DNA from: the human T2T-CHM13v2.0 reference genome, Homo sapiens
DNA: 64,000 nt
Assembly (NCBI RefSeq): GCF_009914755.1
Contig: NC_060943.1
Strand: one strand, 5' to 3'
Both the position numbers and the translations under genes were made by a program. Under the pieces are notes generated by a model. It ran no database searches. It worked only from the letters and a program-made list of their open reading frames with translations, and had not been told where the DNA came from. Positions 31,512 to 34,403 of this stretch are shown in pieces; position 1 is the first letter of the stretch, and each line of letters opens with the position of its first letter.

Positions 31512-32852
31512 TGTTACAGGACCACCAGGTTCATATCCCTGCTGTGCAATAACAGAAAATACACTGAGACAGAAGTGTTTGCAGCAGAGAAAAAGTTTAA
31601 TGATCACAGGGTGGCCGAGCTGGGAGATGGAAGGAACTCTCAAATACATCTCCCCCAGGAGTTCTGGGCTGGAGTTTTTAAGGACTCCATGGAGGATGAG
31701 GGATTAGAAAATGGGGGTCACTGATTGGTTGAAGAAAGGAGGATGAAATCATCAAGATGTGGAAACTTCCTTCTTTGGTGAGTGAGCCCCTCATGGGGGG
31801 CTGGCTATGATTCATGACCTTTATTGTGGTAAATGGCACTCAGGAAGCACTTTGGCTTGACTATCAGGCCAAATTTTATCAGCACCACGGGCAAGTTTGC
31901 AGGACGACTCGTTCCTGTTTACCCCATGCACCCCAAGGGAAATTGCTGAAGTTTCTGTTTATCTTGGTACAACTAAAGAAGGATGCAAGAATGGACAAAC
32001 TTTTTTGGCCACTCATTTACTCCTCCCGGTGCTGGGTCTTTACACACCTGGCATGATTTCATGGGCTGGTTCTTATCCACAGGTGACTCTTCCACATCAC
32101 TCAGGTTTCTGCTCGAAGGTCACCTCCTGGGGGCCCCCTGCCTGATCACCGTGTCCAGAACAGCCCCCTTGGTCCCTTTCTATCTATTCCTGCAGAATAA
32201 CTGATGTCAGTAGTTTCCCTGATATGCAAAACCTGAAAGAATATCTCAAATGGAGAACTCACATTTCACAATGCTTGAGACGCTGTCTCTAGGGCAGTTG
32301 AAGAAGTGTATAATTTTGTGACAGGGTCTATGTGATTCTAAGGCAAGAAGCAGCAAACAGCTATGAGGGAGCAGTCAGAGAACAAGCTGACGTAATGATT
32401 AATGCTGAATGTGCTGCAGACTTGGTTCATTTTTTTTCCTCCTCCCTTCTTCCATGATTAATTTTATAAAGTGTATAGGTGATATGGTTGGGCTGTGTCC
32501 CCACCCAAATCTCCTCTTGTAGTTCCCACAATCCGCATGTGTCGTGGAAGGTACCCGGGAGGTAATTTAATCATGGGGGTGGTTACTCTCATGCCGTTCT
32601 CATGATAGTGGGTAAGTTCTCACAAGATCTGATGGTTTTATAAGGGGCTTTTCCCCCTTTTGCTTGGCACTTCTCGTTGCTGCTGCCATGTGAAGAAGGA
32701 CATGTTTGCTTCCCCTTCCACCATGATTGTACGTTTTCTGAGGCCTCCCCAGCCTTGTGGAACTGTGAGTCAATTAAAACTTTTTCCTTATTAAATTACC
32801 CTGTGTCTTTATTAGCAGCATGAAAACAGACTAATACAATAGGGATGGGTCA
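31512..32852 (-). mobile_element. ERV1 solo LTR (MER57/MER41-like) interrupted by a 386-bp templated copy (31800-32185) and a THE1 LTR
   Basis: TG...CA ends with 4-bp TSD CTGG (31508-31511 and 32853-32856). Family name tentative. Confidence 0.65.
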
Positions 32853-34403
32853 CTGGTGAGGGTGCTGGGGTCAGCTGTTCAGGACCAGCACCACCCAATA
32901 GATCCCACCCATGAGGGGTTGATACCAACTCTTATGGGTCATCTGGACTTTTCTGAAACTTTCCTGGGGCTGTTTTTCTCCAGCTCATCTGATCTCCTGT
33001 TGCCTCTGGCAAGGTGCTAGCCAGTCAGTCTAGCTCTGGACATGCCTTGGGAAGCTGGCTATGATTCATGACCTTTATTGTGGTAAATGGCACTCAGGAA
33101 GCACTTTGGCTTGACTATCGGGCCAAATTTTATCAGCACCACGGGCAAGTTTGCAGGACGACTCGTTCCTGTTTACCCCATGCACCCCAAGGGAAATTGC
33201 TGAAGTTTCTGTTTATCTTGGTACAACTAAAGAAGGATGCAAGAATGGACAAACTTTTTGGCCACTCATTTACTCCTCCTGGTGCTGGGTCTTTACACAC
33301 CTGGCATGATTTCATGGGCTGGTTCTTATCCACAGGTGACTCTTCCACGTCACTCAGGTTTCTGCTCAAAGGTCACCTCCTGGGGGTCCCCTGCCTGATC
33401 ACCGTGTCCAGAACGGCCCCCTTGGTCCCTTTCTATCTCATCTCACTCTTGTAATTTCTTTCATCACCGTCACCATTGGATTTGGTCTTATGATCTGTTG
33501 GCTTCCTCCATCAGACAGGAACACCAGGTTGGCAGTGTTGACTGAAATTAAGGCTTTGAGGCAGAAATAATTCAATAAAGGTTTATTGGAAGTCAAATGT
33601 GAGGATTGATTGAGGAAGACACAGTAATGAAATTGAGCATGCTTTAAAGCCTTTTATAAATTGGAATGTTTTTGTGAGAAGGTTTAGGAGAAGGGAGGGG
33701 AACTCAAACAGGAGTTGTATGTTTTTCTTTCCCTTCCTTCTTTCCTTCCTTTCTTCCTTTCTCTCTCTCTTTTTCTTTCTTTCTTTCTTTCTTGTTTTGA
33801 GACAGGGTCTCACTCTGTCACCCAGGCTGGAGTGCAATGGCACAATCACAGCTCACTGAAGCCTCAACCTCCTGGGCTCAAGCGATCCTCTTGCCTCAGC
33901 CTCCCAAGTAGCTAGGACCACAGGTGTGCACCACCAAGCAAGGTTAATTATTTTTTTTTGTAGAGACAGGATCTCCTTTTGTTTCTCAGGCTGGTCTCAA
34001 ACTCCTGGGCTCAAGCAATCCTCCCACCTCAGCCTCCCAAAATGCTGGGATTACAGGCATGAGCCACTGTGCCTAGCTGGAGTTGTCTTTTTCATTGCAG
34101 GGTATAATATAGAGATTATAATTATTGGCTACAAATGACAACATATAGGCTAGAACATTAATATATGTAAAACAATCTGTACAACTTTATGATTTAGAAA
34201 CAAATTTGTGTCTTTTTCAATGTCAGTAGGTTACATATTAAGCATGTCGACAGTTTGAGGAACTCAGGATAAAATTTGAGGCTGGCTATGATTCATGACC
34301 TTTATTGTGGTAAATGGCACTGAGTAAGCACTTGGCTTGACTATCAGGCCAAATTTTATCAGCACCACGGGTAGGTGTGCAGGACGGCTGGTTCTGCCAT
34401 GCA
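31800..34403 (+). repeat. Three dispersed direct copies of one segment: 31800-32185, 33054-33438 and partial 34281-34403
   Basis: All start at GCTGGCTATGATTCATGACCTTTATTGTGG; copies 1 and 2 differ by 6 substitutions and 1 indel by my count. Confidence 0.95.
32480..32838 (+). mobile_element. THE1 (MaLR) solo LTR
   Basis: TGATATGG...ACAGACTAATACA with 5-bp TSD ATAGG (32475-32479, 32839-32843). Confidence 0.9.

What the first reader, a model, noticed from the sequence alone, without database searches (positions are those of the whole stretch)
31800..34403. Three copies of one segment share an identical left breakpoint; two sit inside unrelated old LTRs on either side of the source
Copy 2 (33054-33438) appears to be the source because it runs on into a continuous L2 remnant. 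Copy 1 (386 bp, ~98% identical) cuts that L2 mid-way and interrupts an ERV1 LTR. Copy 3 (~123 bp, more diverged) interrupts a different LTR whose sister at 49.1-50.0 kb lacks it. No TSDs or poly(A) are visible. All three start at the same base, which lies 20 nt 3' of a minus-strand AATAAA (TTTATT at 31820-31825 in copy 1), where an antisense RNA would be cleaved. Offsets from the source are -1254 and +1227. Inference: repeated local templated insertion, possibly RNA/cDNA-templated repair from an antisense transcript ending at 33054, rather than ordinary tandem duplication.
Basis: partly seen in the sequence, partly recalled or inferred. Interest (0 to 1): 0.7.

Follow-up and report, generated by a model that had tools for sequence, protein, structure and literature searches.

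The report
One donor, two local repair patches
A short stretch of human DNA was copied twice into nearby old viral remnants, both copies starting at the same base, likely by ordinary DNA-break repair; the only unusual point is the shared start, which likely ties the two events together.

Summary
Copy 1 (31800-32185, 6 substitutions in 385) and copy 3 (34281-34403, 9 in 115) both start at donor base 33054 within 1-2 nt. Eight ~70% paralogues run through 33054 unbroken, so copy 2 is the source and the start is no repeat terminus. LTR relatives show empty sites: about no loss at copy 1, about 12 bp lost at copy 3; no poly(A) or target duplication. This is a repair-mediated duplication as defined by Pace et al. 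2009 (PMC2671141), whose pipeline dropped inserts with several copies. Independent reuse of one donor end is expected only 0.003-0.007 times genome-wide, so the inserts are probably linked: one clustered-break episode plus later conversion of copies 1 and 2 (~0.4), or two events at one priming site or homology edge (~0.35). The RNA idea is weak (~0.08): the AATAAA placement has 2.4% chance but there is no T tract, no U-rich downstream element, and paralogues lack the hexamer. The -1254/+1227 symmetry is incidental (866 before insertion). The 'sister' LTR is the other end of the same provirus. Primate orthologues would decide timing.

The parts
33054..33438 (+). Copy 2, donor segment; right part is an L2-like remnant (family name recalled, no Dfam here)
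   Evidence: 8 of 8 paralogues align continuously over 32855-33535 at ~70%
31800..32185 (+). Copy 1, inserted copy; G run at left junction, 2-nt filler AT at 32186-32187
   Evidence: 6 substitutions + 1 indel vs donor; 9 of 11 LTR relatives continuous within -2..+1 nt across the site
34281..34403 (+). Copy 3, inserted copy of donor 33054-~33184 with a 7-bp deletion; about 12 bp of the LTR lost
   Evidence: 9 substitutions in 115 vs donor; 5 of 11 relatives have 11-12 bases at the site, 3 lack one tandem unit, 3 uninformative; partner LTR lacks the insert
31512..32852 (-). Solo LTR 'X' (acceptor of copy 1), flanked by 4-bp duplication CTGG
   Evidence: 478 candidate relatives, best 76-81%; duplication; absent from paralogues
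32480..32838 (.). MST/MaLR-like LTR nested in X (name recalled), 5-bp duplication ATAGG
   Evidence: X relatives stop aligning at 32479
33536..34501 (-). Left (3') LTR 'Y' of a 16.4-kb provirus-like element, acceptor of copy 3; holds an Alu at ~33770-34078
   Evidence: orientation from the purine tract beside the matching LTR in relative L041
49124..49976 (-). Right (5') LTR of the same element, no insert
   Evidence: 73-81% identical to LTR Y in three Alu-free blocks; GCAG at 33532-33535 and 49977-49980
33074..33079 (-). AATAAA hexamer 19-20 nt from the shared start; function unshown
   Evidence: absent in 8 of 8 paralogues
33018..33061 (.). 7-bp inverted repeat (33018-33024 / 33055-33061) whose right arm begins at the shared start; not unusually stable
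   Evidence: z -0.16 and -0.51; 1.6% of random points have one

Best explanation
Copies 1 and 3 are insertions of the segment starting at 33054 into empty sites of two old LTRs, likely written by double-strand-break repair that copied nearby DNA (repair-mediated duplication). Shown: donor identity, empty sites, small loss and filler at junctions, no poly(A) or target duplication. Inferred: a broken 3' end primed on the donor with little microhomology, copied 385 or ~130 nt, let go and was rejoined by end joining. The shared start is most likely one donor end used twice in one clustered-break or stalled-fork episode, with copies 1 and 2 later homogenised by gene conversion while the short copy 3 escaped (about 0.4); two separate events at one site is nearly as likely (about 0.35, first rival). 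The confidence given is for DNA-templated copying as a whole.
For: Empty sites. Paralogues fix the donor. Size, distance under 5 kb and junction types match the 824 proximal duplications of PMC2671141, none of whose 39 inspected proximal cases had a poly(A/T) tract. Chance sharing of a donor end: 0.003-0.007 expected genome-wide from the paper's density (crude). For one episode: copies 1 and 3 share A at 33120 where donor and 8 of 8 paralogues have G; copy 1's junction has six G where 7 of 11 relatives have four and 1 has five, which fits G at donor 33052 (8 of 8 paralogues) and 33053 (7 of 8); copy 1/2 differences are uneven, 1 in 200 left and 6 in 185 right (p=0.06). Conversion is reported as much faster above ~200-250 bp of identity in yeast, with similar results in rodents (PMC3924818).
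Against: At face value the copies differ in age: 9/115 vs 6/385, p=0.002; in the same interval 9/115 vs 1/115, p=0.019. Five of the six copy 1/2 substitutions are at sites that are CpG in one copy, so non-CpG divergence is about 1 in 370; one episode needs conversion over nearly all 385 bp. Copies 1 and 2 share three apparently derived bases (33148, 33161, 33164). 33120 is a CpG and may have changed twice. With the present donor sequence the left microhomology is only 1 nt, matched by ~1125 of 4919 nearby positions; the better fit uses a 30%-diverged outgroup, chosen after the fact. PMC2671141 found donor-acceptor divergence mostly at neutral expectation, i.e. little conversion.
Confidence: 0.75

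Rival explanations
1. Two separate DNA-templated events, copy 3 first (roughly 18-39 Myr by rate) and copy 1 later (roughly 3.5-8 Myr). The start recurs because both broken ends finish in GG and primed at the same G-rich donor site, or because the later nascent strand re-paired with the older copy and was trimmed at the homology edge. A sub-case of the best explanation.
For: Divergence contrast and dates; changes split between the copy 3 and copy 1/2 lineages as neutral ageing predicts; needs no conversion; 33 of ~4920 nearby positions fit both ends as well as 33054 by 7-nt match, which shrinks the coincidence.
Against: Independent reuse is expected only 0.003-0.007 times genome-wide before microhomology or hotspot effects. 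Two of the three 'derived' sites could instead be a short template jump, since copy 3's 34386-34395 matches donor 33317-33326 exactly. Edge trimming is my inference, with no direct sign except possibly 33120.
Confidence: 0.35
2. RNA-templated local repair: a minus-strand transcript from the LTR/provirus ends at ~33054 via the AATAAA, and its 3' end was reverse-copied into two nearby breaks, giving a shared 3' end and variable 5' ends.
For: AATAAA at the right distance, 2.4% chance (3.4% with ATTAAA); it is the next minus-strand AATAAA after the LTR's own at 33582; the provirus and LOC124904644 lie on the minus strand; explains one start at two dates without conversion; RNA-derived patches without poly(A) are proposed as class 2 TSIPs (PMC5110952).
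Against: No T tract in 2 of 2 copies; signal-dependent inserts in PMC5110952 carry 10-40 A and a target duplication; downstream element not U-rich; hexamer absent in 8 of 8 paralogues; no dispersed retrocopy; if the tail is lost there is no reason for a base-exact start.
Confidence: 0.08
3. Cut-and-paste capture: SPO11 double cuts released fragments with a common left cut from a sister or homologue, which were ligated into other breaks of the same hotspot.
For: Mouse double-cut fragments of 15-967 bp insert at other breaks, median microhomology 1 bp (PMC13532658); human hotspot SVs are enriched under ~2 kb (PMC7615360).
Against: Reported ectopic inserts come from other hotspots; both copies here are direct and local; no 13-mer PRDM9-like motif (pattern recalled) between 28515 and 38827, though hotspots turn over; needs three or more cuts.
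Confidence: 0.07
4. An old tandem duplication or triplication later eroded by deletions.
For: Direct orientation and similar start-to-start spacing.
Against: Both LTRs are near-continuous across the inserts, their terminal duplications are intact, flanks are unrelated, and the pre-insertion distances were 866 and 1227.
Confidence: 0.02

Closest known systems
Repair-mediated duplications (Pace, Sen, Batzer, Feschotte 2009, PMC2671141)
   Same: Insert of 50-619 bp in a transposable element, donor within 5 kb (peak ~1.2 kb), small deletion, filler or microhomology, no poly(A/T).
   Different: One donor end feeds two acceptors on opposite sides. [quoted passage not shown] None of the 39 chr19 entries in Table S1 fits this locus (the hg18 position of about 15.57 Mb is my recalled estimate).
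Doublets (Thomas et al. 2004; seen only as described in PMC2671141)
   Same: Short local paired duplications attributed to break repair.
   Different: Those were near-identical and under 100 bp; here 385 and ~123 bp and three copies.
Templated sequence insertion polymorphisms (PMC5110952)
   Same: Class 2: no target duplication or tail, end-joining junctions. Class 1: AATAAA 10-30 nt from the end.
   Different: TSIP donors are distant; class 1 needs poly(A), target duplication and a TTTT/A site, all absent here.
SPO11 double-cut fragment insertion (PMC13532658)
   Same: Insert size range, minimal microhomology, germline origin.
   Different: Mouse mutants mostly; donors at other hotspots; no hotspot evidence here.

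Membership tests
Repair-mediated duplication | Insert of 50 bp or more interrupting a transposable element with an empty site in relatives | tested here: met
Repair-mediated duplication | Identifiable donor within 5 kb, not tandem (>50 bp apart) | tested here: met
   gaps of ~865 and ~1100 bp; paralogues fix the donor
Repair-mediated duplication | Junction deletion, filler or microhomology; no poly(A/T) | tested here: met
   copy 1: 2-nt filler, 1-nt microhomology; copy 3: ~12-bp loss
Repair-mediated duplication | Insert found at only one other place (the paper's operational filter) | tested here: not met
   three local copies; this is a search filter, not a mechanistic criterion, and is why I call it a variant
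Repair-mediated duplication | Precise absence at the orthologous site in an outgroup primate | not testable with these tools
   no other primate genome is held
Class 1 TSIP / L1-mediated retrocopy | Poly(A) tail | tested here: not met
   no T tract at 31800 or 34281
Class 1 TSIP / L1-mediated retrocopy | Target-site duplication and TTTT/A site | tested here: not met
Class 1 TSIP / L1-mediated retrocopy | AATAAA 10-30 nt before the end | tested here: met
   33074-33079
RNA-templated repair in cis | A germline transcript whose 3' end is at the shared start | not testable with these tools
   no expression data; the supplied annotation lists none
Dispersed repeat terminus | Many genomic copies beginning at this base | tested here: not met
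   only local copies and paralogues that cross the base
Tandem duplication with erosion | Lost or duplicated flank sequence at the junctions | tested here: not met

The most novel reading that the evidence does not exclude
An LTR-driven antisense transcript ending at 33054 served twice, millions of years apart, as an in-cis template for germline break repair, leaving tail-less 5'-truncated copies beside their own source; such shared-end doubles would be a fossil record of RNA-templated repair.
Probability: 0.08. Interest if true: 0.7.

Novelty: new variant of a known kind. Interest (0 to 1): 0.3.

Why it matters
Each insert is ordinary: over 800 such duplications are catalogued in human transposable elements. 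No function is indicated; the locus is intergenic and repeat-derived. The value is mechanistic: one-donor, two-acceptor cases were filtered out of the only genome-wide survey I found, and their frequency and dating would show whether germline repair uses one template end several times in one episode, whether a first duplicate steers later ones, or whether RNA 3' ends act as templates. It is also a clean test of gene conversion between 385-bp repeats 1.25 kb apart.

Tried and rejected
Dispersed repeat end: rejected. Eroded tandem duplication: rejected. Offset symmetry: incidental. Stable hairpin at the start: not beyond shuffles; a 7-bp stem exists but 1.6% of random points have one. G-quadruplex pattern: one match at 32842, 200 bp away, none at the start; PRDM9-like 13-mer: none within 4 kb. 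Strong shared microhomology: not with today's donor; scoring 33052-33053 as either present or paralogue state makes 33054 the single best site for both ends, but this is post hoc and for copy 3 mixes the two states. A near-palindrome ATGA.TCAT occurs at the donor start and near both acceptor sites; seen by eye, not tested, not used. Literature: searches found no paper describing one donor end with two acceptors, no paper on this locus by title or abstract start; the library lacks most subscription papers, so this is weak. A genome-wide count of such triples could not be run. Earlier scan findings were not available.

Full report
Observation. The three copies are real. Copy 1 aligns to copy 2 at 97.7% over 392 bases and copy 3 at 91.5% over 118. 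All three read alike from donor base 33054 and have unrelated left flanks; one G at each junction could belong to either side, so the shared start is exact to 1-2 nt. Among low-copy self-matches in the window these are the only non-tandem pairs under 3 kb apart above 90% identity.

Source. A genome search with the segment returned 13 of 13 candidates: three local copies, eight paralogues on chromosomes 2, 9 (three), 13, 18, 20, 21 at 68-70%, and two short matches to the right end; a search centred on the start gave the same picture. All eight paralogues align without a break over 32855-33535. They lack the LTR at 31512-32852 and step from 33535 to about 49977. So copy 2 is ancestral, 33054 is not a repeat end, and the element 33536-49976 is one later insertion, flanked by GCAG on both sides; LTR X is flanked by CTGG and holds a nested LTR flanked by ATAGG. 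The two LTRs of the long element match at 283 of 374 aligned bases, so both acceptors are much older than the inserts. Family names (ERV1, MST, L2, Alu) are recalled resemblances; no repeat library was available.

Acceptor sites. I examined 11 of the 40 listed relatives of each LTR. For LTR X, 9 of 11 are continuous across the site within -2 to +1 nt; two projections were off through local indels. Copy 1 thus went in with about no loss, one extra G on the left and AT on the right. For LTR Y, 5 of 11 have 11-12 bases where copy 3 sits, 3 lack one tandem unit, and 3 are uninformative (Alu insertion or poor right-side alignment); the partner LTR has no insert. There is no T tract and no target duplication. 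Two deletions after a tandem duplication would have to rejoin each LTR almost exactly, so that route is rejected. The offset 1254 includes the 388 inserted bases; the original distances were 866 and 1227.

Ages. Copy 1 vs 2: 6 substitutions in 385 (1.6%, CI 0.6-3.4) and one indel. Copy 3 vs 2: 9 in 115 (7.8%, CI 3.6-14.3) plus a 1-bp and a 7-bp deletion; p=0.002. At 2.2e-9 or 1e-9 per site per year these give 3.5 or 7.8 and 18 or 39 Myr. Paralogues side with copy 3 at 33148, 33161 and 33164, with copies 1/2 at 33095, and with copy 2 alone at the CpG 33120. Two of the three sites favouring a copy 1/2 pair could be a template jump, and the third lies beside a gap.

Why one start? From the published density of 0.62 such duplications per Mb of repeat DNA, independent sharing of a donor end within 1 nt is expected 0.003-0.007 times per genome; microhomology preference and break clustering could raise that by one or two orders. 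A link is therefore likely. (1) One episode: a single exposed donor end primes two nearby broken ends; later conversion keeps the 385-bp pair alike while the short copy drifts. Hints: the shared A at 33120, the six-G junction that fits the paralogue state at 33052-33053, uneven differences along the pair (p=0.06). Cost: near full-length conversion. (2) Two events at one G-rich site, or trimming of the later strand at the older copy's edge. Fits the ages; cost: coincidence. (3) RNA end. The hexamer is where it should be (2.4% chance) and the provirus is on the minus strand (purine tract in one relative), but tail, downstream element, conservation and retrocopies are all missing, and an equally rare stem (1.6%) sits at the same base, showing how easily such post hoc features turn up. 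(4) SPO11 fragment capture. My odds, which are judgement and not computed: 0.40, 0.35, 0.08, 0.07.

Comparison with print. PMC2671141: I read parts 1-5 of 8 of the text and searched Table S1 for chr19. It defines the class, gives the ~1.2 kb peak and 619 bp maximum, reports no poly(A/T) in 39 of 39 proximal cases, and drops inserts with more than one other copy; none of 39 chr19 entries fits. PMC3924818, PMC5110952, PMC7615360 and PMC13532658: abstract-level text and search passages only. Thomas et al. 2004 and Lukaszewicz et al. 2021 were seen only as cited or listed. Searches listed no paper that by title or abstract start describes a shared-end double or this locus.

Verdict. Two repair-mediated duplications from one donor end: a real feature of a known class with one odd trait. 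No function is evident. Interest 0.3; primate orthologues and 3'-end data, neither available here, would settle the open part.

Noticed in passing
window 33536-49976: One 16.4-kb provirus-like element on the minus strand with both LTRs and a GCAG duplication, splitting an L2-like remnant; swollen by nested L1 and Alu copies (relatives have LTR matches ~3.5-6.5 kb apart); the predicted lncRNA LOC124904644 lies inside it on the same strand.
   Followed up: partly
L004-L011 (chr2, 9, 13, 18, 20, 21): Eight paralogues 87-98% alike among themselves but only ~70% to chr19; they extend toward CYP4F8 and lack both LTR elements and RPL23AP2. Probably the dispersed CYP4F pseudogene duplications (recalled); no closer chr19 source was found.
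   Followed up: partly
window 31800-32185 vs 33054-33438: Five of six substitutions are at sites that are CpG in one copy; four are AT-to-GC by the outgroup, as GC-biased conversion or CpG decay would give.
   Followed up: partly
window 285-1911: Tandem duplication of ~666-bp period at 85% identity.
   Followed up: no
window 29268-29512 and 47224-47656: Minisatellite-like arrays of 49-bp and ~167-bp units.
   Followed up: no
window 34960-38584, junction near 35980: L1-like sequence that seems to switch from antisense to sense, as in a 5'-inverted insertion (by eye; resemblance recalled).
   Followed up: no
window 3034-16823 vs 54650-63482: CYP4F23P and CYP4F8 align at 78-84% including introns, an old local gene duplication.
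   Followed up: no
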